Notes under the pieces: generated by a model
What the model was told of the DNA's origin: nothing
Database searches by the model: none
Seen by the model: only the letters and a program-made list of their open reading frames with translations
Source of the DNA: a virus
UHGV virus genome: UHGV-0109738
Reading direction: 5' to 3' (one strand)
DNA length: 64,000 nt
Program-made: the position numbers and the translations under genes
Shown here: piece after piece, positions 37,129 through 47,877 of the stretch
How positions within the stretch are numbered: the first letter of the stretch is position 1
Layout of the letters: every line of letters begins with the position of its first letter

Positions 37129-37599
37129 TTATTCTTTGCGTAAGCACTGCGTTTTGATGTAGTCCTGTAACCCAGTGATCTGAGCGTCTTTCGTTTTTAG
37201 TTGTTCTCTGAGGGATAGATAAGCTGATTCAGCGTCGGGAGTGAGTCTACAGGTGGCTCCATCAATGGCGCTGGCGGATCCGGTGGGGTCAGACACTCGC
37301 ACGGGCGTTGCGTTGACGCGCAGCCGGATAGTGCCGTTATCAATACCAGTGCGCAGATCGGCAATGTCAGATCTGATAGCTTTAATTTCATCGTGATACC
37401 TCTTATCAAGTTTTGACAGTTCGGCGTTTCGCTCCTTCATCTGCTGAATAGTATTACTTGCTGTTTTTAGTGCGCCCTGCGTAGTAGTTAGCTCGCTTTG
37501 CATTGTGTTTATCACTGACTGGCAATGACTGAGCGCGGCAACAAGGCCAACAACAATACAAACAACAACGGCGATGATTAACGTCTTCACCTTGTCCAT
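37129..37599 (-). CDS. Rz i-spanin
   Basis: 156 aa; N-terminal TM then coiled-coil; follows endolysin; contains embedded Rz1 frame. Confidence 0.8.
37197..37391 (-). CDS. Rz1 o-spanin lipoprotein (embedded in Rz)
   Basis: [24 protein letters not shown] lipobox; proline-rich; alternative frame within Rz. Confidence 0.75.
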   Translation of the reverse strand: MKLKLSDLTLPICALVLITALSGCASTQRPCECLTPPDPPAPLMEPPVDSLPTLNQLIYPSENN

Positions 37600-38078
37600 G
37601 TTTCACCCCATTCGCAAACGGCATATTCAACCTCGCGGCGGTTAACCAGGCCTTGCCACTTCTTACCGCCAGCGTATACCCAGCGTTTAAGCTGTGCGCA
37701 CGCTTCTGATTTCTTGCCGTCATTGAGTAGCTTCAATAAGGTTGATGTTTTGAAATTGGTAGCGCCTACGTTATAGGCGAATGAATAAAGTGCTGCGCGG
37801 GTAAAATCTGATATTTCGACTTTAATATAGGGATCGATCGCTTTTGCGGTCTTGTGTAGATCTTTATTTAACAAAGCATCGCATTCTGATTGCGTGTAAG
37901 TCTTGCCAAGCATGATGTCTTTTCCCGTATGACCGTGGCAAACAGTCCATACACCAACAACATCACGATAAGGATTGTAATCAACTCCCTCTAATGGCTT
38001 AATCATCACCGCCGCAATAGCGATCGCCCCACCAGCCGCCGCCGCAACAATCTTGTTTTTCAGCGATTGGCTAATCAT
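37587..38078 (-). CDS. SAR endolysin (phage lysozyme)
   Basis: N-terminal signal-anchor [26 protein letters not shown] followed by lysozyme-like domain; start immediately after holin stop. Confidence 0.8.
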
Positions 38079-38079
38079 G

Positions 38080-38280
38080 TTACTTATTCCCCATTCGCGC
38101 GTCGTGTTCCTCTTGCGCTCGCTTGTTCTCCTGTGATTTGAAGTAATAGTTAACGGCAAATGTGCCTACGGTTGATAAGATACCCACAAAGACGGCAATA
38201 TCATTGATGGTTATCGCGCCGAAAAAAGCAGTTACGGCCCCAGTCACATACGCGCACGCCTCCCGTATTCTGTCGAACAT
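38080..38280 (-). CDS. holin (phage 21 S-type pinholin-like)
   Basis: 66 aa, two TM segments, charged C-terminus [26 protein letters not shown]. Confidence 0.75.
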
Positions 38281-38300: not shown

Positions 38301-38322
38301 AAAAACCCGGCGCGGGGCCGGG
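38301..38322 (-). terminator. rho-independent terminator immediately upstream of holin (tR'-like position)
   Basis: Minus-strand cccggc-cccgc-gccggg followed by TTTTT. Confidence 0.6.
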
Positions 38323-38387
38323 TAGTTATAGTTTCGCATTGTTAGAGAATATTTTAATCTGTTTGTTTACGACCTACAAATACGGCG

Positions 38388-38564
38388 TTACGGCTTTCTA
38401 TATATCAGGCCATTATCAAGCAATGTTTGCATATGCCACCGATCCATGTCGCTTAATTCCCAATAAGGAACATCATCAGGTCTTATCATCACCGATTCAC
38501 CTCTAACCAAATAGGCGATGTTAAATACCTTATGTAAATAGATGCCATCTTCGATCTCGTTCAT
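38388..38564 (-). CDS. small hypothetical protein (58 aa), paralog of 38561-38740
   Basis: Manual translation; N-terminus MNEIEDGIY; start overlaps upstream stop (ATGA). Confidence 0.4.
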   Translation of the reverse strand: MNEIEDGIYLHKVFNIAYLVRGESVMIRPDDVPYWELSDMDRWHMQTLLDNGLIYRKP

Positions 38565-38740
38565 AGGTCGCTAACCTTAAACAGTATGCCTTTATCAACG
38601 CCACGCTTAATGTCTTCCCTTGTTGTTTTGAAGAACGGCTCATATTCCCCACCATCGAAGCTGATTGTTACAGTATCGCCGCCCACTATGTAAAAAACGT
38701 TCTCCATCAGGTTTACACCATAGATACCGTCTTCAATCAT
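38561..38740 (-). CDS. small hypothetical protein (59 aa), paralog of 38388-38564
   Basis: Manual translation; N-terminus MIEDGIYGV; ATGA overlaps at both ends. Confidence 0.4.
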   Translation of the reverse strand: MIEDGIYGVNLMENVFYIVGGDTVTISFDGGEYEPFFKTTREDIKRGVDKGILFKVSDL

Positions 38741-38931
38741 TTCTTGCGCTCCTTAATAGCTCGCTTGATCTGCACTACCGTAGCATCGAAGAAAGCGAGA
38801 AACATCACTACAGGCCATAAAGGAATCTCAAGGCCACCACGATCGAGATCGTTATATTTGATGAAACAAGACATCAGGATAGCGCCAGCGATATAAAGGA
38901 GAAATACAGCAAAGATAAGACATTCAATCAT
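38737..38931 (-). CDS. small membrane protein (64 aa)
   Basis: ORF track; hydrophobic N-terminal half. Confidence 0.45.
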   Translation of the reverse strand: MIECLIFAVFLLYIAGAILMSCFIKYNDLDRGGLEIPLWPVVMFLAFFDATVVQIKRAIKERKK

Positions 38932-39064
38932 CCTCTTTCTCCCCGCCTAAATGTTGATATATTTTTTCAGCATTTTCCCCGCGCTCAAAACAATAATGCT
39001 CAAACATGCGCCAGTGTTCACTAAGAAACATAACAATAAACTTGTTTACGTATTCGTCATCCAT
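38924..39064 (-). CDS. small hypothetical protein (46 aa)
   Basis: Manual translation; start 3 nt after upstream stop. Confidence 0.35.
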   Translation of the reverse strand: MDDEYVNKFIVMFLSEHWRMFEHYCFERGENAEKIYQHLGGEKEDD

Positions 39065-39066
39065 CG

Positions 39067-39378
39067 TTAATCATCCTCTTCATCGTCTTCTTGTTCAGCT
39101 AGGAAATCATCGACAGAACAGTAAGTAACTGGCGGGATATATTCGAAGTCATCCGTATCAAGATCGAGCGTCCTGCTGTCGCCGTCGTCGTCAATCGTAT
39201 TCATTCCTAACTCACCGAAAGGGCCGTACCCAATGTGGCCCAGGTATTCGCAACCAATCGCAAACCCAGGGTATTCGCCTTTACACCGGATTTTGTAAAG
39301 TTTATTTGATGCGCTCAATTTCCGACCCTCCACTTTCTGCTTCAGTGATTTTGTATTCTGCCGCCAGTTCAGCGCCAA
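39067..39378 (-). CDS. hypothetical acidic protein (start uncertain)
   Basis: ORF track; acidic C-terminal tail EQEDDEEDD; N-terminal region ambiguous between frames. Confidence 0.3.
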   Translation of the reverse strand: MALNWRQNTKSLKQKVEGRKLSASNKLYKIRCKGEYPGFAIGCEYLGHIGYGPFGELGMNTIDDDGDSRTLDLDTDDFEYIPPVTYCSVDDFLAEQEDDEEDD

Positions 39379-39628
39379 GCAATTCCACTTCCATATTAGC
39401 GATACCCTGGAACATCAGATAGGCAAAAACTAGGCTTTTAATTCTATCCGGGTCTTCAAGATGGTCTGCATTAAAAGGCGGTTCCGATACGTGGAAGCAT
39501 TTAACATGCGCATCGTCTTCAGTGGCTACACGGAAACATGCGCCAGGTTACCCGGCGAATTCCCCCAATCTTTCTTCGTTCGGTAAAGTACCACGGAAAA
39601 CTTTAACGCTGATAAATTTAGTCATTGT

Positions 39629-39910
39629 TTATTCTCCTTCGTAAAGAGTTGCCACCAGTTCGGCATCTGTTAGCGTGTTATAATCTGTATAAAACCCGCA
39701 ACGCATAAGTGAAGAAAGGCCAGCCACTTTGCACCACATAGGGGTCGATTCGCTCAAATATTCATTCTCCCTTTTTTCGCTGTATTCCAGTTCATAAAAC
39801 CGACTATTGTTAACACCCTCAATTACACGGCTGTATGTGCCATCAAGCCTACTAACTCCGCGCCATAGTCTGATCACAACCATAATTTCTACTCCGTTTG
39901 ATGGGGCCAT
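39629..39910 (-). CDS. hypothetical protein (93 aa)
   Basis: ORF track; start lies within a GGGGCC/GGCCCC hairpin. Confidence 0.4.
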   Translation of the reverse strand: MAPSNGVEIMVVIRLWRGVSRLDGTYSRVIEGVNNSRFYELEYSEKRENEYLSESTPMWCKVAGLSSLMRCGFYTDYNTLTDAELVATLYEGE

Positions 39911-39922
39911 TCGGCCCCGTGT

Positions 39923-40063
39923 TTATTCTTCTTCTCCTCCTCTAAATCCTAAGCACTCCGCGTATTCGTCAATGCTTAATGCTTCTTCACCTGGTGCCAA
40001 TACTTCAAAGTAGCGGGCGTATAGTTCGAAAACCCAGGCCGGATATTTAGCGTTAGCGTTCAT
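39923..40063 (-). CDS. small hypothetical protein (46 aa)
   Basis: Manual translation; AAGGGG SD. Confidence 0.35.
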   Translation of the reverse strand: MNANAKYPAWVFELYARYFEVLAPGEEALSIDEYAECLGFRGGEEE

Positions 40064-40072
40064 GGTTCCCCC

Positions 40073-40351
40073 TTATGCCATGCGTGCAAATTCAAGTGAT
40101 TTGCATTCGTAGTCTTCCTCTGCCTGTTCGATGACTGCCATCATCATTTCGTTTGCGTTGTTGAATGCGTTGCTTTGTGCGAACTTGTCGGCTCCACCTT
40201 CTTCTTCGAACTCCGCGTTGTTTGCTGCAATGTAGTGATATTCGATGTTGTTCAGGTAAGGGCTTGCAGCGTGTGCTGGGTCTTCTTTCTCCACCATCTC
40301 CCAAAATGCGTTTAAGCGAGATTCGACTTCTTTGTTAATCCAGCGTTTCAT
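40073..40351 (-). CDS. hypothetical acidic protein (92 aa)
   Basis: ORF track. Confidence 0.45.
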   Translation of the reverse strand: MKRWINKEVESRLNAFWEMVEKEDPAHAASPYLNNIEYHYIAANNAEFEEEGGADKFAQSNAFNNANEMMMAVIEQAEEDYECKSLEFARMA

Positions 40352-40429
40352 TTTTCTACCCTCCGCATCGTTCTCTCTTCAGCTTCTTTATAACAAAATG
40401 GCACTGCCGAAACAATGCCATTTCGTAAA

Positions 40430-40451
40430 CCTTGTGATACAGATCACATTT
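40430..40451. promoter_or_regulatory. perfect CRP-consensus site TGTGA-N6-TCACA
   Basis: ccttgTGTGAtacagaTCACAttt in the only sizeable intergenic gap (40352-40449) of the late small-gene block; adjacent 8-bp inverted repeat aaatggca/tgccattt. Confidence 0.45.
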
Positions 40452-40674
40452 ACGTTTCTTCCGTAAAAGTAACCTTCATCGCCCCATCCGAACTACGGAC
40501 AACATAACGACCAATACCGCCTAGCGGCCCTGCATACCATAAGTGACCGTAAGTGTCAGTTACGACGATAAACGGAAATTTAGGAGACAATCCCATCGGT
40601 TTTTCAGCCGTATACTGTGCGCCTTCTTCAAAACAGCCTAATTTCGATTCGTTACACGTTAAAATCATTTTCAT
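40450..40674 (-). CDS. small protein, paralog family A member 1 (74 aa)
   Basis: Shares F-x-x-G-x-x-Y ... TD-x-x-G-x-LW pattern with three adjacent genes. Confidence 0.5.
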   Translation of the reverse strand: MKMILTCNESKLGCFEEGAQYTAEKPMGLSPKFPFIVVTDTYGHLWYAGPLGGIGRYVVRSSDGAMKVTFTEET

Positions 40675-40910
40675 ACCCCTACATACGAAAACGCAGCAAA
40701 AGCACCACCACCAGCACGCGCATAAACAAGTGCCGTGCCATACCCCATCTTATAAAATCGCCATAACTGACCCTGGTCGTCAGTAATGGCATGAATATAT
40801 TCCTGATCCTTTGCGTCAACCAATGCCGCGTCAACCTCGTAGATCTTGCCATTCTTAAAAAACGCGCTGCATCGTGAGTATGTGCACTGGTATCTATGTT
40901 TCCGATTCAT
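40671..40910 (-). CDS. small protein, paralog family A member 2 (79 aa)
   Basis: FFKNGKIYEV..ITDDQGQLWRFY; ATGA overlap with member 1. Confidence 0.5.
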   Translation of the reverse strand: MNRKHRYQCTYSRCSAFFKNGKIYEVDAALVDAKDQEYIHAITDDQGQLWRFYKMGYGTALVYARAGGGAFAAFSYVGV

Positions 40911-40920
40911 AGCACCTCAC

Positions 40921-41178
40921 TTATTCCGGTTTACTGCCTTCGCGGGCGCAAAACTCCGCGATCTCACGGAAATCATGCACTATGCGATAAATATACAAAC
41001 CAGCGGCGTTATTGATATGGCTAACATAAGCGAAATAAACTTTATCATCATCGCCAGTTATCGCCATTGCACCATCACCGCCCGGTGCGCCGTGGAGTTG
41101 AACGCCGCAATAGATCTTCCCTTCTTCAAAAATATTGCGGTCGCGCGTCTGCAATACCTCAAAATATAAATGTTTCAT
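40921..41178 (-). CDS. small protein, paralog family A member 3 (85 aa)
   Basis: FEEGKIYCGV..ITGDDDKVYFAY; AAGGGG SD. Confidence 0.5.
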   Translation of the reverse strand: MKHLYFEVLQTRDRNIFEEGKIYCGVQLHGAPGGDGAMAITGDDDKVYFAYVSHINNAAGLYIYRIVHDFREIAEFCAREGSKPE

Positions 41179-41188
41179 TGTTGCCCCT

Positions 41189-41401
41189 TTAATAACGTTC
41201 AAAGCTGGCAGCAAAACCTACACCGGATATTTCACCGCCTTCATAGCTCGGCCTGAATACCCATATTTCGTCATGATTATCAATCAAGGCAAGGCAATTA
41301 CTCATTGTGTGTGCTTCATTGCCATAAACGATGTGAACGTCATAAATACTCCCAATCGTGAAAACACTGTCATTGCTTGAGTATGAGCATTTAACTTGCA
41401 T
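41189..41401 (-). CDS. small protein, paralog family A member 4 (70 aa)
   Basis: FTIGSIYDVH..LIDNHDEIWVF. Confidence 0.5.
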   Translation of the reverse strand: MQVKCSYSSNDSVFTIGSIYDVHIVYGNEAHTMSNCLALIDNHDEIWVFRPSYEGGEISGVGFAASFERY

Positions 41402-41646
41402 CAGAAAACCCCTTTATAATCGACCGTGTATTTTGCTATCAGATTCCAGTCGCAGTAATTAAGCATGTTGCGAGGCTGCCAGCCTTTCATCCCGACCGCC
41501 CGCCGCGCAGCGTGACGGCGATAATCATCGTTATAGTCAGCTATGCACCACGGCTGGAGAACAAACATATAATTTGCTTCATTAACCAGGATAGCCACCA
41601 GCTTTCCTGTTGCCTTGTCTTTTGCCCTGAAATAATTCACTTTCAT
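41401..41646 (-). CDS. small hypothetical protein (81 aa)
   Basis: ORF track; tightly packed co-directional. Confidence 0.45.
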   Translation of the reverse strand: MKVNYFRAKDKATGKLVAILVNEANYMFVLQPWCIADYNDDYRRHAARRAVGMKGWQPRNMLNYCDWNLIAKYTVDYKGVF

Positions 41647-41858
41647 TTTAACACCTCGTCGATCAACATTTCTTCTTCCAGGTTAGCCGGACGTTTACGA
41701 AATATCCCGGCAAAAACCAGATCTTCGAGTAGGTCTTTACGCTTAAATAACCACTCTTTCATTATCACCCCGTCGTTGCTGCGATATACGACGCCGCTTT
41801 TCAGAAAATAAAAAGTGCGGCTATTGGTCTGTAGGTAGAGATCTTCGTAAACGTCCAT
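41643..41858 (-). CDS. small hypothetical protein (71 aa)
   Basis: ORF track; 4-nt overlap. Confidence 0.45.
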   Translation of the reverse strand: MDVYEDLYLQTNSRTFYFLKSGVVYRSNDGVIMKEWLFKRKDLLEDLVFAGIFRKRPANLEEEMLIDEVLK

Positions 41859-41862
41859 ACCG

Positions 41863-42090
41863 TTAATCCTCTACAATCTCAAGCCCGCGCCCCTTGTCCC
41901 CGACGAAATCGCCCAAGCTGAACGTATACGACCACGCCGGATTGATGTAATGGTCATCAGCACCAGCGGCAATGAGATCAGCACCATTAATCATGCAAGT
42001 AATATCATCGCTATGAACGACATTAACGACCTTACCAACAACCTGTTTCAATGACTGGTATCCGTGATCGTGCAAGAATTTAACTTTCAT
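41863..42090 (-). CDS. small hypothetical protein (75 aa)
   Basis: ORF track. Confidence 0.45.
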   Translation of the reverse strand: MKVKFLHDHGYQSLKQVVGKVVNVVHSDDITCMINGADLIAAGADDHYINPAWSYTFSLGDFVGDKGRGLEIVED

Positions 42091-42320
42091 TCGTCTGCCT
42101 CCCAGTGGTCTATGCTGATTAAAAAGTCCCGGATAGCGTGTCGTTCGTCGCGCGTTGGCTTGCGCTTACGGTAAATCTTAAAGTCAAACCATTCTTTTTC
42201 TTGTTCGAAATCCAGGTTGTAAGCAAGCACCTCAATATATCCACATTCGTGATACTGGTACGCCACGCCAGCACGAACAAAAAAGCGGGTTTTATCCCGC
42301 TTGTGTTCATAGATACGCAT
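42087..42320 (-). CDS. small hypothetical protein (77 aa)
   Basis: ORF track; 4-nt overlap. Confidence 0.45.
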   Translation of the reverse strand: MRIYEHKRDKTRFFVRAGVAYQYHECGYIEVLAYNLDFEQEKEWFDFKIYRKRKPTRDERHAIRDFLISIDHWEADE

Positions 42321-42330
42321 ATTTGCCCCA

Positions 42331-42561
42331 CTATGCAGTCGTGTAACTATCTACCAGCTTTTCATCCTTCATTCTGGCAAGCTGGGAGATATTCATCGTG
42401 TAGCCTTCATCAGAGAAAAGCCACTCCGCAGCCTTGCGACGAAAAGCTATATCATCATGGTTGCGCGTCCATGTAGCGATCACCACGCGCTTTCCATCAG
42501 TGGCAAACATGGTTAATTCGTTATCAACAACGTCGATAGCCTGCCAGATTTTTAGTTCCAT
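42331..42561 (-). CDS. small hypothetical protein (76 aa)
   Basis: ORF track. Confidence 0.45.
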   Translation of the reverse strand: MELKIWQAIDVVDNELTMFATDGKRVVIATWTRNHDDIAFRRKAAEWLFSDEGYTMNISQLARMKDEKLVDSYTTA

Positions 42562-42917
42562 GATTTATCACCGTAGATCTTGAATAGTTCACACGCTTTC
42601 TGATCTTCAAATATATTCATATGCAGGTCACGCAGACGGCGCATTGTTCGGAATCGCGGTCTAAACTCCTGGCTCCGTTTAATGTATTTGCCGCCAATTG
42701 AATAAATATGCCCGTATGAATACCATCTATTCCCTACCCATATTTCATATTCTTTGCCTTCGTAATTGAATTTTATCGTTAGCTCGTCCACTTCAACTAT
42801 TGACCATTTATCAATGATGTCATTAAGCATTTCGTCCCATTCTTTCAGGAATGGATGCTGATAAAAACCGAAAAGCGTATTTGCAGCGTGGCAAAGGTAA
42901 TCAATGATTATTTGCAT
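42552..42917 (-). CDS. hypothetical protein (121 aa)
   Basis: ORF track. Confidence 0.45.
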   Translation of the reverse strand: MQIIIDYLCHAANTLFGFYQHPFLKEWDEMLNDIIDKWSIVEVDELTIKFNYEGKEYEIWVGNRWYSYGHIYSIGGKYIKRSQEFRPRFRTMRRLRDLHMNIFEDQKACELFKIYGDKSWN

Positions 42918-43137
42918 ATTTCCACCTTCTCAATATGTAGTAAATGTTATCGTAAGCTATATTATCCGCATCTTCCTGTGTTATATGTCTGGCATCAAAA
43001 AAGAAATCAGCGTCGTGCCATACATGAAAAAGAAGTCGCGCGAATTGTCTGCGGCGGCGCTTACTGCGTGATAGTTCGTTAAATTCTATTAACGCTTTAT
43101 CATATGCTCTTATCATGCGCTTACGGTTACTTTTCAT
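42901..43137 (-). CDS. small basic protein, paralog family B member 1 (78 aa)
   Basis: MKSNRKRMIRAYDKALIEF..; tandem paralog of 43142-43342. Confidence 0.5.
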   Translation of the reverse strand: MKSNRKRMIRAYDKALIEFNELSRSKRRRRQFARLLFHVWHDADFFFDARHITQEDADNIAYDNIYYILRRWKYANNH

Positions 43138-43141
43138 ATTG

Positions 43142-43342
43142 TCACCACATCATATAGTAAACGTTATCATCTGCTAATTCGTCTGCGTCTCTTTGGCAGT
43201 CGATTGTCGCATCATCTTCGTGCCATTCTTTAGCAAATAAACGCGCCCATTTACGACGCTCACGTTTATTGTGCCGCAGGTCACTAAAAACCATTAAAGC
43301 CTTGTCGTAAGCTCTTACCAGGCGTTTCATTCTACTTTTCAT
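43142..43342 (-). CDS. small basic protein, paralog family B member 2 (66 aa)
   Basis: MKSRMKRLVRAYDKALMVF.. Confidence 0.5.
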   Translation of the reverse strand: MKSRMKRLVRAYDKALMVFSDLRHNKRERRKWARLFAKEWHEDDATIDCQRDADELADDNVYYMMW

Positions 43343-43548
43343 TTTTCACCCTTCCTTAATTCCTTAATTTCAATATTGCGTAACCGGACGTCGCACGGCG
43401 TTTCAGATTTACCAGTAAGCGCCAGCGTCAGGTTTTCAGGTGTCGTGTAAAGAATTATCTCTTTACCAGTGCTAAATTTAATTTCTATGCGGATCTCGTT
43501 TTCATCACCGCACAATACGCGGCTAATTGACAGGCCAGCTTTTTTCAT
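43339..43548 (-). CDS. small hypothetical protein (69 aa)
   Basis: ORF track. Confidence 0.4.
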   Translation of the reverse strand: MKKAGLSISRVLCGDENEIRIEIKFSTGKEIILYTTPENLTLALTGKSETPCDVRLRNIEIKELRKGEK

Positions 43549-43561
43549 TGCTCAACAAACC

Positions 43562-43873
43562 TTAAAATCTGTATTGCCAGTAAATATCACACTTTATTGC
43601 GAATACCTTCACCGGATCAGGGCCGAATAGTGGATGTTGAATCAACTTGATTTCGTACCCCATGTAAGGCAATACGATAATCCGGTCTTTCTCATCATCC
43701 GATGGATAACCCCATTTAATGATTAATCTTGTGTACTCCCGCCCCTCCAGGCGTTTACGCCAGTATTCATTGTAAAGCCGGTATTCTTCCACCTTCTTTC
43801 CCGCCCGGATGGCGTGGAAGTATTCACCTTTTAAATTCAAATGTAAGTGTTTATTTGCCATCGCTATGATCAT
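43562..43873 (-). CDS. hypothetical protein (103 aa)
   Basis: ORF track. Confidence 0.45.
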   Translation of the reverse strand: MIIAMANKHLHLNLKGEYFHAIRAGKKVEEYRLYNEYWRKRLEGREYTRLIIKWGYPSDDEKDRIIVLPYMGYEIKLIQHPLFGPDPVKVFAIKCDIYWQYRF

Positions 43874-44120
43874 GTAAACAGTCGTTATAGCCTTCGATGT
43901 ATCCGGTTAATCCTGTGTTACTTACTGACCAATCAGCCGAACGGCGCTTGATGGCCTTGTCCATAGTCATCTCGTCACCTGGCCCGCCTGGCTCGATGTA
44001 TTTTCTTAAATCCCTTACTATCCACGCCCTTAATTGTTGCGTATCACTGCACACACGCGCCGTTAATGTCAGATTATTAACCAGCTTTGCGAATAGATGT
44101 TCTTTTAATTTAGGCTTCAT
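43851..44120 (-). CDS. hypothetical protein (89 aa)
   Basis: ORF track. Confidence 0.4.
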   Translation of the reverse strand: MKPKLKEHLFAKLVNNLTLTARVCSDTQQLRAWIVRDLRKYIEPGGPGDEMTMDKAIKRRSADWSVSNTGLTGYIEGYNDCLHDHSDGK

Positions 44121-44310
44121 CCTTCACCTCGCGACGATAGATTTCTACTGGCTTAACCGGAATAGCGTTAAAATCACCTTCATCCAGTGCGGCAATAAAC
44201 GTTAGCGCCAACCGTGCTTCAACACCGCTTAAATACTTGCACCATGCCTCACCGTTATAATCTTTAAAAAGAATAATCACTTTTTTCATGTTTATCTCTT
44301 GTTGTTTCAT
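44110..44310 (-). CDS. hypothetical protein (66 aa)
   Basis: ORF track; begins right at Q stop, leaving no room for a lambda-like pR' gap. Confidence 0.4.
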   Translation of the reverse strand: MKQQEINMKKVIILFKDYNGEAWCKYLSGVEARLALTFIAALDEGDFNAIPVKPVEIYRREVKDEA

Positions 44311-45032
44311 TATTCACCCCGTGTCACTCGTTTAATTTCGTTATCAGCCCGCGCCTCTTCTTTGAACAATTCAGTAATGGCGTCTTCATAGAAAGCACGG
44401 TATTTCTTCCACCACGTTGATCGGCTTACCGGAAATACAAGCTGATTAACCGCACGCCGGACAAGATCTACAGGGAAACGCGAGTACCCGCGCCCGCCGC
44501 AATGCTGGCACGTTTTGAACGCTGGCATTTCCGCTGCTTCACTGGCTGCTTTATCCGGTATCTCGCCGCGCCCTTTGCATCGTTTACAATGATTGCGAAC
44601 TTTTCCATGCCCCTTGCATTTTTTGCAAAGGTGTTTTTCTCCGTAGTCGTCAAACGTAAATTTATATCCGCCGCAATCCATACAAGTTTTTTCTGTCGCG
44701 GCACTCTGGCAGTAATCCCGAAACGCGAAAACGGCAACAAGAATAATAAGATCATTGCGTTTGTCCTCGTCCAACTCCATGACGTATTCGTAATCTTTTG
44801 CCATAGCTCTTAAACGCTCTGTAAGCAAAACTACGGCCCTGTGTTTTTCGGCTTGCGATAATTCCATCTTCCCTAAAAAAGCGCTATAACCAAGCTCTAC
44901 GCGCGATTGCGCCATACCTGCTGCGGTTAGTGCATCAGTAGTATTAAGCGAGTCTGGGGACGTGCCCCGGCTTTCATCTGACAAACGCGGTGATTTTGGG
45001 AGGTGGAATTTAAGAATAGATTCCAAATTCAT
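44310..45032 (-). CDS. Q: late antitermination protein Q (lambda type)
   Basis: N-terminus MNLESILKFHLPKSPRLSDESRGTSPDSL..AAGMAQS aligns with lambda Q; Cys-rich zinc-binding region. Confidence 0.85.
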   Translation of the reverse strand: MNLESILKFHLPKSPRLSDESRGTSPDSLNTTDALTAAGMAQSRVELGYSAFLGKMELSQAEKHRAVVLLTERLRAMAKDYEYVMELDEDKRNDLIILVAVFAFRDYCQSAATEKTCMDCGGYKFTFDDYGEKHLCKKCKGHGKVRNHCKRCKGRGEIPDKAASEAAEMPAFKTCQHCGGRGYSRFPVDLVRRAVNQLVFPVSRSTWWKKYRAFYEDAITELFKEEARADNEIKRVTRGE

Positions 45033-45214
45033 TATTTACCCCCGTAACGTGCAACCAGTCTTTTGCGATCAGATATTGATTGCACTAGCTTTCTTTCAAA
45101 CTCTTTCAATGCAAGCAATTCGCGCATATGAAAAGCCTGGATTTGTCGGACTGTAGCTAAATCATGCTCATCGCGCTGAATATCTATTTGCAGATCTTTA
45201 ACTTCGTTTTTCAT
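45032..45214 (-). CDS. hypothetical protein (60 aa)
   Basis: ORF track. Confidence 0.4.
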   Translation of the reverse strand: MKNEVKDLQIDIQRDEHDLATVRQIQAFHMRELLALKEFERKLVQSISDRKRLVARYGGK

Positions 45215-45618
45215 TGCTCACCCCACATATTAGTCGCGTATTCGTCAATATCCGGTAGTAGGTCGCCGCGTTCGCGGATCTTAATAAACAAGCGTCCGCC
45301 TTTTACCTTCCGGCAGCGGACAATTTTTATTGAGTCAATTTGTCCATCATCTTTCCAAAATCCGGCATAAGTAAGGCTGTCAAATAGGCATTTAGGGATA
45401 TTATCAAGATCCCTGGTCCGGTTATCAGGCGGCGCGGCATAAATGGCGATTGCCAGTCGGCAAGACAGGTTAATGTCTAGATTTAATAATTCGATGATGT
45501 CTTTTACTTGTTCCCGGTATTCCTTCCCCACTTCGCTGATATAGTGAAAACCCCGTGAATGTCGGTAATAGCGGTTATTCGATGGCGGGTAAGGCAGGCT
45601 AAAAGTATATTCATTCAT
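45211..45618 (-). CDS. rusA: crossover junction endodeoxyribonuclease RusA
   Basis: LPYPPSNNRYYRHSRG and RDLDNIPKCLFDSLTYAGFWKDDGQ match RusA. Confidence 0.9.
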   Translation of the reverse strand: MNEYTFSLPYPPSNNRYYRHSRGFHYISEVGKEYREQVKDIIELLNLDINLSCRLAIAIYAAPPDNRTRDLDNIPKCLFDSLTYAGFWKDDGQIDSIKIVRCRKVKGGRLFIKIRERGDLLPDIDEYATNMWGEQ

Positions 45619-46570: not shown

Positions 46571-47335
46571 TCAGTCCGGTAAAACGCGGTTAAGCGTAGT
46601 ACGATTGATGGCCCGGTCGTTAGCCAGGAATACAGCACGGGCAAAGCCGCGCGGCGTTAGTGAGCGGATCATCTTAGTGCGTTTCGACTTTCCTCCTAAC
46701 TTCGCGTGCTGTTTGCTGTCTTCCCATTCATCCGGCATAGGTACAGGCCGGAATAGCGGCTGCTTAAATCCATTCCCGCACCAGATACAAGTTTTCTTCG
46801 TGTATGCGTCGCGGTCGGCGATGTATTCCGGGAAAGCAGGATGTTTGTCGTCTTCCGGCAGGTAGCCACCGTAAGCGCACGGATTGAAGATAAAATCCGG
46901 CTTACGCCATAACGTTGACAGTGCGCCCACCGGATTTTCCACCATCCACGGGACGTGATACATGTCAGCCAGCGTTTCTACCAGTTTTGCGTTATATGCC
47001 GCCTTCACCTGGAAGTCAGGATCTTTTTCACGCTTGCTGGCAAACCAACGAGCGTCGGACACGGCTAGATGGTCGCATGGCGGGAAGGCCAGAATAATGT
47101 CAGGATCTGGATAAACAGACAAATCAGGGGAGAACATCACCAGGAAATGGCTGTCAATCCATACGTTAACGTATTCAATATTCGGATGAATGATTTTTAC
47201 GCCTTCATAGTCGCCGTGGTTAGCGCCGTCATAGTTGAAGCAATAACACTTATAGCCAGCGTCAGCCCAATCTTTAACGGCGTACCCGCTGCCGTCGTAC
47301 AACGACCACACCACCCAATTTTTAAGCCCGCTCAT
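46571..47335 (-). CDS. putative DNA (cytosine-5)-methyltransferase-like protein
   Basis: Motifs resembling C5-MTase I (SLYDGSG), IV (FPPCDHLAVS) and VI (ENPVG); 254 aa. Confidence 0.45.
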   Translation of the reverse strand: MSGLKNWVVWSLYDGSGYAVKDWADAGYKCYCFNYDGANHGDYEGVKIIHPNIEYVNVWIDSHFLVMFSPDLSVYPDPDIILAFPPCDHLAVSDARWFASKREKDPDFQVKAAYNAKLVETLADMYHVPWMVENPVGALSTLWRKPDFIFNPCAYGGYLPEDDKHPAFPEYIADRDAYTKKTCIWCGNGFKQPLFRPVPMPDEWEDSKQHAKLGGKSKRTKMIRSLTPRGFARAVFLANDRAINRTTLNRVLPD

Positions 47336-47877
47336 TTTCTGCCCTCAAACGTAAAATAGCGGCGCATGATGATAGTGATCACCGTTACCGCTGCCATTTT
47401 TGAGATGAATTGAATAGCTGATATTTCCGGTATAAATGCCATAAACGATAGCGTGGGAAAAATTAACGCATCGCCGATAGCTGAAGCTATATTTGCAGGC
47501 CAGCGTTTCGAATCGAAATCACCAGGTAAAACACGGTAAACGCCGCCAGAAATAAGCGCACAGGAAACAACCGCAACGAATGACGCGATCGCCACCATTC
47601 CTGCATCATAGTTTATCAGCACCGTAATTGCGCCAGCGGCGGCGCATGTTGTAGCCGACCATTTCAGGCCGCCGTCATATAACAAGAAGTCACGGATCAT
47701 CATATTGACACACACTGCGGCTACCGTGGTGATCGGAATTACCCACGGGCCACAGTGGTTAACAATAAGATTGATGATCACGAAAACGGCGACATAAACG
47801 CAGGCTAATAACCTGTCAATTGTCACCCTTTTCATTTGGATCGTACCTCTTATCACGAATAGCTTCAGCTCTATCAA
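47332..47877 (-). CDS. hypothetical multi-pass membrane protein
   Basis: ORF track; several hydrophobic segments. Confidence 0.45.
   Translation of the reverse strand: MIELKLFVIRGTIQMKRVTIDRLLACVYVAVFVIINLIVNHCGPWVIPITTVAAVCVNMMIRDFLLYDGGLKWSATTCAAAGAITVLINYDAGMVAIASFVAVVSCALISGGVYRVLPGDFDSKRWPANIASAIGDALIFPTLSFMAFIPEISAIQFISKMAAVTVITIIMRRYFTFEGRK

What the first reader, a model, noticed from the sequence alone, without database searches (positions are those of the whole stretch)
40450..41401. Four tandem paralogs of a 70-85 aa protein family
The four adjacent genes share the pattern F-x-x-G-x-(I)Y ... (I/L)(T/I)D-x-x-(G/D)-x-(L/I)W-x-(F/Y) ... G (for example FFKNGKIYEV..ITDDQGQLWRFY; FEEGKIYCGV..ITGDDDKVYFAY; FTIGSIYDVH..LIDNHDEIWVF). 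Tandem duplication with divergence suggests selection for diversity, as seen for phage anti-defense or host-range accessory genes.
Basis: seen in the sequence. Interest (0 to 1): 0.65.

Follow-up and report, generated by a model that had tools for sequence, protein, structure and literature searches.

The report
Tandem Gp54-like small phage proteins
Four neighbouring genes in an E. coli prophage are real, very diverged copies of one small beta-barrel protein family of unknown function; its predicted fold most resembles a phage protein known to be sensed by a bacterial immune system.

Summary
The four minus-strand ORFs at 40450-41401 (A 74 aa, B 79, C 85, D 70) are homologous. Pairwise, only B-D is clearly significant. 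Leave-one-family-out HMMs still recover each one as the top non-model ORF among 517 window ORFs (E 1e-3 to 6e-12; best unrelated ORF E >= 0.22). Profile-profile scores for the two outliers, A and C, exceed all 100 column shuffles.

The window is an mEp021-like (mEpimmI) temperate coliphage. The genes sit in a block of about 24 small unannotated ORFs between the Q antiterminator gene and the lysis genes, and a hairpin terminator follows gene A. In related phages the same slot holds 0-5 members drawn from at least 9 subtypes. Each window paralogue is under purifying selection (pN/pS 0.10-0.24).

Function is untested. The most likely role is a set of small protein-binding accessory factors acting during lytic growth.

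The parts
41189..41401 (-). Gene D, 70 aa (MQVKCSYSS...). First (5'-most) family member of the array. Its ATG overlaps the stop codon of the upstream gene g12.
   Evidence: ORF. SD-like AAAGGGG upstream. Matches phrog_31142 at 8e-5. Leave-out HMM E 1e-6. Orthologue pN/pS 0.24.
40921..41178 (-). Gene C, 85 aa from the ATG (MKHLYF...). Most divergent member, with a longer C-terminal part.
   Evidence: ORF. SD-like AAAGGGG. Leave-out HMM E 6.9e-5. hhalign against the core profile scores 29.6, P 4.8e-5, with 0 of 100 shuffles reaching it. pN/pS 0.17. AlphaFold on the C-only alignment failed (pLDDT 47).
40671..40910 (-). Gene B, 79 aa (MNRKHRYQCTYS...). The hub member, most similar to all the others, and the protein that was modelled.
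40450..40674 (-). Gene A, 74 aa (MKMILTCNES...). Last member of the array. Its start overlaps the stop of B by 4 nt.
   Evidence: ORF. SD-like GTAGGGG. Leave-out HMM E 9.7e-4. hhalign against the core profile scores 27.7, P 1e-4, with 0 of 100 shuffles reaching it. pN/pS 0.17.
40387..40426 (-). Intrinsic-terminator-like hairpin (15-bp stem, UCGG loop) followed by UUUUGUUAU, 24 nt downstream of the stop codon of A. It marks the end of the transcription unit that carries the array.
   Evidence: RNA fold of the 101-nt spacer: -28 kcal/mol, z -3.6, 0 of 200 shuffles fold as well. Coordinates. The orthologous position in mEp010 is annotated as a Rho-independent terminator, T8. The simple consensus scan missed it.

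Best explanation
What it is (shown). The four genes are ancient, individually conserved paralogues of one family of small (70-95 aa), soluble proteins. They have no signal peptide or membrane segment. The window is an mEp021-like (mEpimmI) temperate coliphage.

Where they sit. The genes are tightly packed, each with its own ribosome-binding site. This packing suggests translational coupling (inferred). They lie at the distal end of a gap-free run of small ORFs that begins directly after the Q antiterminator gene and ends at a hairpin terminator after gene A. The slot is an accessory cassette locus: related phages carry 0-5 members drawn from at least 9 subtypes, and mEp021 itself has none.

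Fold (predicted for B; extended to A, C and D by homology). A six-stranded beta-barrel with a long beta1-beta2 loop, the rare topology solved for Gp54 of phage Bas11. The conserved residues are F-x-x-G-x-x-Y at the start of beta2, the D-x-x-G-x-x-W hairpin and a C-terminal F. I read these as building the core and the turns (inferred). The loops and surfaces differ between paralogues, and pI ranges from 4.6 to 9.0.

Most likely mode of action (inferred, not shown). Each paralogue is a small protein-binding module made together with Q during lytic development. Each binds a different host or immune protein, so the array forms a repertoire of host-takeover or counter-defence factors, or conversely of proteins that defence systems sense.

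Approximate confidences: paralogy 0.95; Gp54-like fold 0.65; accessory binder of host or defence proteins 0.4; specifically anti-defence 0.2-0.25.
For: - Homology.
- Phage identity and position between Q (44310-45032) and the holin/endolysin/spanin genes.
- Ribosome-binding sites and overlapping stop/start codons.
- Terminator after gene A.
- Variable array composition, and absence from the viable phage mEp021.
- Purifying selection on each paralogue.
- Predicted structure: pLDDT 80.9, six strands, a 10-residue beta1-beta2 loop.
- Structural relatives are many small uncharacterised proteins of Drexlerviridae and other enterobacterial phages.
- Sequence relatives occur in Bas11 itself (gp71, the C-terminal half of gp48, the N-terminal part of gp79), and in a T1-like contig that also carries a Pfam Gp54 gene.
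- The four proteins have no hydrophobic segments and differ widely in charge.
Against: - No functional evidence of any kind: no match in PADLOC, Pfam or NCBIfam, and no paper on the family.
- The fold link rests on one predicted model (B only) and one method. Foldseek against the PDB did not list 9axb among its top 50.
- The C-only alignment gave an unusable model (pLDDT 47).
- Sequence profiles do not connect the family to Gp54: hhalign P 0.046-0.45, and no PF25180 hit.
- The function of Gp54 is itself unknown, so the analogy transfers little mechanism.
- Expression timing is inferred from gene order only. The positions of the promoters are not established.
- Purifying selection without positive selection is not the typical signature of an arms-race interface.
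Confidence: 0.4

Rival explanations
1. Prophage-benefit (moron-like) genes. The proteins are made in the lysogen and protect it, for example by superinfection exclusion or by acting against other phages.
For: The host element is a temperate phage, and the genes are in a flexible accessory region between Q and the lysis genes, where lambdoid phages often carry morons (established knowledge). The array is followed by its own terminator. Presence is patchy: 19 of 5426 complete E. coli genomes.
Against: There is no intergenic space for a dedicated promoter. D overlaps the upstream gene g12, and the run of ORFs is gap-free back to Q. Promoter-like sites in the block are no more frequent than in shuffled sequence (12 found, 16 expected). 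No PADLOC match. The relatives occur in strictly virulent T1-like phages, where a lysogen-protection role is impossible.
Confidence: 0.15
2. Small nucleic-acid-binding barrels (SH3, Tudor, Sm or OB-like) that modulate phage or host transcription, RNA or DNA transactions during late development.
Confidence: 0.12
3. Virion-associated or assembly accessory proteins, such as minor decoration, chaperone or ejected proteins.
For: The orthologue of a gene two positions upstream (g11, window 41643-41858) is annotated in mEp021 as a 'virion structural protein'; the mEp021 paper mapped virion proteins by mass spectrometry. One BFVD structural neighbour is labelled 'putative minor capsid protein'. P0085 has a weak match to a PHROG called 'virion structural protein' (1.7e-6).
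Against: No family member was found in mEp021, a viable phage: none in the Q-to-portal region examined, and tblastn with B and D found nothing in its record. Copy number varies from 0 to 5 among phages with near-identical structural modules. Such database labels are unverified.
Confidence: 0.08
4. The shared motif is chance or convergence (an Asp-box-like beta hairpin), and the four ORFs are unrelated or are not real genes.
For: Four of the six pairwise comparisons are not distinguishable from the background among neighbouring ORFs. The D-x-x-G-x-x-W element also gives many-stretch matches in unrelated beta-propellers.
Against: Leave-one-out HMMs and shuffle-controlled profile-profile scores support full-length, in-register, colinear homology for all four. 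All four are conserved under purifying selection across many prophages. NCBI's PGAP pipeline annotates them as four genes.
Confidence: 0.02

Closest known systems
Gp54 of Escherichia phage Bas11 (PDB 9AXB; Pfam PF25180 'Phage antiviral trigger protein Gp54')
   Different: There is no significant sequence or profile similarity. Gp54 is a single gene in a virulent T1-like phage, not a tandem array in a temperate phage. Gp54 has a demonstrated partner (the CapRelSJ46 antitoxin domain) and unfolds on binding. Nothing comparable is known here. Foldseek did not reproduce the match.
phrog_31142 and neighbouring PHROGs of unknown function (9122, 4927, 6261, 10169, 2684, 9181)
   Same: phrog_31142 is essentially subtype E of this family (2.6e-45). 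It also matches B (6e-7), D (8e-5), F (3.4e-9) and P0082. Bas11 gp71 (phrog_9181), the C-terminal half of gp48 (phrog_2684) and the N-terminal part of gp79 carry the same KC...F-x-x-G-x-x-Y...D-x-x-G-x-x-[WY] pattern.
   Different: A and C match no PHROG. None of these PHROGs has an annotated function. The T1-like relatives are scattered single genes or two-domain fusions, not arrays.
SH3-like / Tudor-like five-stranded small barrels
   Different: Six strands rather than five, and a much weaker fit than to Gp54. No sequence support.
Asp-box (BNR-type S-x-D-x-G-x-T-W) beta hairpin of sialidases and other propellers
   Same: The T/I-x-D-x-x-G-x-x-W hairpin of the family resembles an Asp-box (my own reading of the motif). 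This explains the multi-stretch profile hits to WD40, Reg_prop, NHL, BNR and GH43 propellers.
   Different: There is one hairpin in a 70-aa barrel, not a repeated blade. The propeller hits reach significance only by summing many weak stretches.

Membership tests
Pfam PF25180 Gp54 (phage antiviral trigger protein) | Sequence match to the family HMM at or above the gathering score (27 bits) | tested here: not met
   A-D gave no PF25180 hit even at E <= 1. The positive control, Gp54 of Bas11, scored 116 bits, E 6e-34. hhalign of a Gp54 family profile against this family gave P 0.046 over 11 columns; single sequence P 0.45.
Pfam PF25180 Gp54 (phage antiviral trigger protein) | Six-stranded beta-barrel with a prominent beta1-beta2 loop (crystal structure 9AXB) | tested here: inconclusive
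   [not shown]
Pfam PF25180 Gp54 (phage antiviral trigger protein) | Direct binding to and activation of CapRelSJ46 | not testable with these tools
   Requires co-expression toxicity, ITC or co-crystal experiments as in PMC11578894. Even close Gp54 homologues from Bas5, Bas8, Bas10 and SECphi27 do not activate it.
phrog_31142 (unknown function) | Significant match to the PHROG HMM | tested here: met
   B 6e-7 and D 8e-5. Subtype E 2.6e-45 and F 3.4e-9. Not met for A and C, which join only through family profiles.
Known anti-phage defence system components (PADLOC-DB 2.0) | Match to any defence-protein HMM | tested here: not met
   0 families for all four proteins at E <= 1.
BNR / Asp-box or other beta-propeller repeat families | Several tandem blades, each with the repeat motif, and a Pfam match | tested here: not met
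   A-D have one D-x-x-G-x-x-W hairpin each and no Pfam repeat hit. The propeller proteins found by the profile match through 5-15 short stretches.
Moron (autonomously expressed prophage gene cassette) | Own promoter upstream and a terminator downstream | tested here: inconclusive
   A terminator is present after A. There is no intergenic space and no above-chance promoter-like site upstream of D. Consensus scans cannot exclude internal promoters.

The most novel reading that the evidence does not exclude
The Gp54-type six-stranded barrel is a widespread phage scaffold for engaging bacterial immune sensors. This array would then be a modular repertoire in which each paralogue blocks, or decoys, a different defence protein, for example CapRel-type or other toxin-antitoxin sensors. 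Phages would tune the repertoire by swapping cassettes at one locus. This would be a temperate-phage 'anti-defence island' built from a single fold.
Probability: 0.15. Interest if true: 0.75.

Novelty: new variant of a known kind. Interest (0 to 1): 0.42.

Why it matters
Small phage proteins of unknown function are where most triggers and inhibitors of bacterial immunity have been found. The Gp54 barrel is so far a one-off structure with no known function.

If the fold assignment holds, this family shows that the rare barrel is not confined to T1-like phages. It also shows that it can be multiplied and shuffled as cassettes in temperate coliphages of the human gut.

It offers a compact, testable set: four conserved paralogues, natural phages with 0-5 copies, and a defined structural analogue with a known defence partner. 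These can be used to ask what Gp54-like proteins do for the phage.

If the fold assignment fails, the finding is only a well-supported but ordinary family of hypothetical phage proteins.

Tried and rejected
- Pairwise BLASTP and Smith-Waterman tests did not by themselves support the four-way claim. Profiles were needed.
- Word-indexed protein searches and tblastn against 50,697 phage records found only close relatives in E. coli and mEp-type phages.
- The exhaustive HMMER search of 1.84 billion representatives found 29 hits. The long ones are WD40, Reg_prop, NHL and BNR propellers matched through many short stretches, and one Gp34-type tail-fibre protein. I rejected these as motif-level matches.
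- An HMM search of PDB sequences gave nothing below E 0.38.
- Linking Gp54 to the family by sequence failed with local and global hhalign, using either a single sequence or a 6-sequence profile.
- AlphaFold on a C-only alignment, intended as an independent test of the shared fold, gave pLDDT 47 and was discarded.
- Foldseek against the PDB gave no significant hit. The afdb50 library was unavailable.
- Weak pairwise hints that g7, g19 or g20 might be extra members were not confirmed by the family HMM.
- PADLOC, NCBIfam and Pfam gave nothing for A-D, and Pfam gave nothing for ten neighbouring genes.
- The mEpimmI paper does not discuss these genes.

Full report
**1. What is in the sequence**

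The interval 40450-41401 holds four adjacent ORFs on the minus strand:
- D, 41189-41401, 70 aa
- C, 40921-41178, 85 aa from the ATG at MKHLYF
- B, 40671-40910, 79 aa
- A, 40450-40674, 74 aa

Transcription runs D, C, B, A. Each ATG is preceded by a purine-rich Shine-Dalgarno-like sequence: AAAGGGG, AAAGGGG, GTGAGGTG and GTAGGGG. The start of D overlaps the stop of the upstream gene. The start of A overlaps the stop of B. The D-C and C-B spacers are 10 nt each.

**2. Is the similarity more than chance?**

Pairwise, mostly not. Smith-Waterman scores against shuffles give B-D z 5.9-6.7, A-B about 4 and B-C about 3.3. A-C, A-D and C-D are at noise level. Among all 276 pairs of the 24 small ORFs in this gene block, unrelated pairs reach z 4-5.

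I therefore collected orthologues. Scans of IMG/VR with B and D returned 37 loci from mEp021-like phages. These hold orthologues of A-D and also further family types:
- E and E2, 71 aa
- F, 74 aa
- G, 94-95 aa
- H, 82 aa

Iterative HMM searches started from A or from D converge on one set. Started from D, that set comes to contain all four window proteins. Started from A, C stays just outside the inclusion threshold (E about 0.004).

Two controlled tests support homology of all four:
- Leave-one-family-out HMMs, searched against all 517 ORFs of at least 35 aa in the window, rank the omitted protein directly after the three family members in the model. E-values are 9.7e-4 (A), 6.2e-12 (B), 6.9e-5 (C) and 1e-6 (D). 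The best unrelated ORF has E >= 0.22.
- For the two outliers, hhalign against the profile of the other types gives score 27.7 (A, P 1e-4) and 29.6 (C, P 4.8e-5). Both alignments are colinear and in register. One hundred column-shuffled controls give mean 10.8, sd about 2.2 and maximum 19.

In the 26-sequence alignment, F18 and Y24 (numbering of B) are invariant, and G21 and F74 are at least 90% conserved. The consensus is KC..S....F..G.IY.V..L.G...(loop)...D..G..W.FY....G.V.......A.F. Identity of A, C and D to B is only about 20%. No other ORF in the window belongs to the family.

**3. Genomic setting**

The region is 82-87% identical at the DNA level to Escherichia phages MagusPhagus, mEp010, mEp044, mEp554, mEp013 and mEp021. 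These belong to the recently described non-lambdoid, Nus-dependent 'mEpimmI' group (PMC11893012). The window is such a prophage, with its genes on the minus strand.

The four genes lie in a block of about 6 kb holding 24 small ORFs. The block runs from the Q-like antiterminator gene (44310-45032) to the holin (38080-38280), endolysin and spanin genes. Ten neighbours were tested and none has a Pfam domain.

From Q down to gene A the ORFs are packed with essentially no gaps. The 98-nt spacer after A contains a 15-bp hairpin plus a U-tract at 40387-40426 on the minus strand (-28 kcal/mol, z -3.6). The equivalent site is annotated as a Rho-independent terminator in mEp010. A second, GC-rich terminator (38305-38323) sits in the 107-nt gap just before the holin gene.

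From this layout I infer that the array is the distal part of the transcription unit that also contains Q, and so is expressed during lytic development. This has not been shown.

**4. Variation and selection**

At the same slot, downstream of the conserved gene g12, related phages carry these arrangements:
- D-C-B-A (the commonest)
- G-D-C-B-A
- E-D-C-B-A
- E-C-B-A
- F-E2-C-B-A
- E-B-A
- F-E2-B-A
- G-D-A
- D-C followed by a truncated B

Further E. coli prophages carry a 94-aa protein followed by a divergent 67-aa D-like type (P0082) at the same position relative to Q and the lysis genes.

The viable phage mEp021 has no detectable member. In the region from the portal gene to upstream of Q that I examined, g12 is followed directly by other genes, and tblastn with B and D finds nothing in its record. 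The array is therefore dispensable, and its composition varies by cassette.

The databases also contain fusion ORFs joining two paralogues, namely P0066, P0072 and P0037. These indicate recombination or deletion within arrays.

Each paralogue is nevertheless conserved. Pooled pN/pS among orthologues is 0.17 (A), 0.10 (B), 0.17 (C) and 0.24 (D). Only the beta2-beta3 loop region of D is relaxed (pN 0.36, pS 0.58).

The array is rare. Megablast finds it in 19 of 5426 complete E. coli genomes, always on the chromosome. In the best-matching records it is annotated as three to five hypothetical proteins, most often four.

**5. How far the family extends**

An exhaustive HMMER search with the family profile over 1.84 billion representative proteins found only 29 hits at E <= 1e-3. 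The full-length hits are:
- the E. coli prophage proteins
- P0082 and P0084
- P0085, a 212-aa protein with two copies of the domain. It lies on a 50.5-kb metagenomic contig that also carries a Pfam Gp54 gene; I read this contig as a T1-like phage.

Most of the remaining hits longer than about 300 aa are WD40, Reg_prop, NHL, BNR or GH43 beta-propellers, plus one Gp34-type tail-fibre protein. They match through 5-15 short stretches over the D-x-x-G-x-x-W hairpin. I read that hairpin as Asp-box-like, and I regard these hits as motif-level matches, not homology.

A-D match no Pfam, NCBIfam or PADLOC model. B and D match phrog_31142 (unknown function), which is subtype E.

**6. Structure**

AlphaFold2, run on the 28-sequence alignment with B as the target and without templates, gave mean pLDDT 80.9 and pTM 0.70. 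The model has six strands (residues 5-12, 23-31, 38-43, 49-55, 59-63 and 70-78) and a 10-residue loop between beta1 and beta2.

The paper on that structure (PMC11578894) describes Gp54 as follows:
- It is 66 aa, of unknown function, and not essential in the laboratory.
- It directly binds the antitoxin domain of the fused toxin-antitoxin defence protein CapRelSJ46, partly unfolding as it does so, and thereby activates it.
- The authors suggest it may benefit the phage by inhibiting another defence system.

Foldseek against BFVD found many small uncharacterised proteins of Drexlerviridae and other enterobacterial phages, with TM-scores of 0.6-0.8. Consistent with this, the family HMM picks up three proteins in Bas11 itself: gp71 (63 aa, E 8e-5; hhalign P 2.7e-4), the C-terminal half of gp48 and the N-terminal part of gp79.

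Caveats:
- Foldseek against the PDB did not list 9axb and gave no significant hit.
- A C-only alignment, intended as an independent check, gave an unusable model (pLDDT 47).
- Sequence profiles do not link the family to Gp54: P 0.046 over 11 columns covering the F-x-x-G element, and otherwise nothing.
- Pfam PF25180 'Gp54' recognises Gp54 (6e-34) but none of A-D.

The fold assignment is therefore probable, not proven. Membership in the Gp54 sequence family is not met.

**7. Most likely mechanism**

Shown:
- four real, homologous genes under purifying selection
- soluble products with no hydrophobic segments and pI from 4.6 to 9.0
- an accessory and dispensable array with modular composition

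Predicted: a Gp54-like barrel.

Inferred: the conserved residues (F-x-x-G-x-x-Y, the D-x-x-G-x-x-W hairpin and the C-terminal F) form the core and the turns, while the loops and surfaces differ between paralogues. This is the pattern expected of one scaffold carrying different binding surfaces.

My best reading is that these are small protein-binding accessory factors made with Q during lytic growth. Each would engage a different host or immune protein, as a counter-defence or takeover factor, or conversely as something a defence system senses. I put about 0.4 on this general reading and 0.2-0.25 on a specifically anti-defence role.

Rivals:
- Lysogen-protective morons. Against this: there is no room for a dedicated promoter, and relatives occur in virulent phages.
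- Nucleic-acid-binding small barrels. Against this: three of the four are acidic, and the SH3/Tudor scores are only at noise level.
- Virion or assembly proteins. Against this: the array is absent from mEp021 and its copy number varies.
- Chance similarity. This is refuted.

**8. Verdict**

The family itself is undescribed. It has no Pfam model, and only one PHROG of unknown function covers part of it. It fits a familiar kind of object, namely small accessory phage proteins in a variable region.

The noteworthy element is the probable occurrence of the rare Gp54 barrel as a shuffled tandem array in temperate gut coliphages. Interest is moderate.

Noticed in passing
window 43142-43342 (-) and 42901-43137 (-): Two adjacent small ORFs (66 and 78 aa; MKSRMKRLVRAYDKAL... 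and MKSNRKRMIRAYDKAL...) are clear paralogues (Smith-Waterman z 29). This is a second tandem duplication in the same Q-to-holin block. Related phages carry one or both.
   Followed up: partly
window 38561-38740 (-) and 38388-38564 (-): Another adjacent paralogue pair (59 and 58 aa; ...EDGIY...), z 10, immediately upstream of the holin region.
   Followed up: no
window 42087-42320 (-) and 41643-41858 (-): A possible third paralogue pair, g9 and g11 (z about 4, not verified). The mEp021 orthologue of g11 (87% identical) is annotated mEp021_41 'virion structural protein'; the mEp021 paper mapped virion proteins by mass spectrometry.
   Followed up: partly
window 38305-38323 (-): A strong GC-rich hairpin followed by a T-run lies in the 107-nt gap between the last small ORF and the holin gene (38080-38280). 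mEp021 has an annotated terminator at the same place. It could be the tR'-type terminator on which the Q protein acts. That would place the late promoter downstream of the small-ORF block, so the block would belong to the early-right operon.
   Followed up: no
proteins P0066, P0072 and P0037 (database ORFs from E. coli prophage contigs): These are fusion ORFs between family paralogues: the E N-terminus joined to the A C-terminus, the G N-terminus joined to A at a shared TCNE motif, and a hybrid of the two A subtypes. They point to recombination or deletion events inside arrays.
   Followed up: no
L040 (Bas11, MZ501085.1) 45147-45338 (+), 37578-37943 (-), 47216-47653 (+); L056 365-559 and 4001-4639: The T1-like phage Bas11 encodes three proteins with the same KC...F-x-x-G-x-x-Y...D-x-x-G motif: gp71, the C-terminal half of gp48 and the N-terminal part of gp79. 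They are scattered through its small-ORF regions. A 50.5-kb metagenomic contig, which I read as a T1-like phage, carries a two-domain member with a hydrophobic C-terminal tail (P0085) about 3.5 kb from a Pfam Gp54 gene.
   Followed up: partly
window 38388-44310 (-): About 24 consecutive small ORFs (46-121 aa) lie between Q and the lysis genes. None of the 14 tested, including A-D, has a Pfam domain. This is an unusually long stretch of unannotated genes, and its content differs between otherwise similar phages.
   Followed up: partly
[not shown]
   Followed up: no
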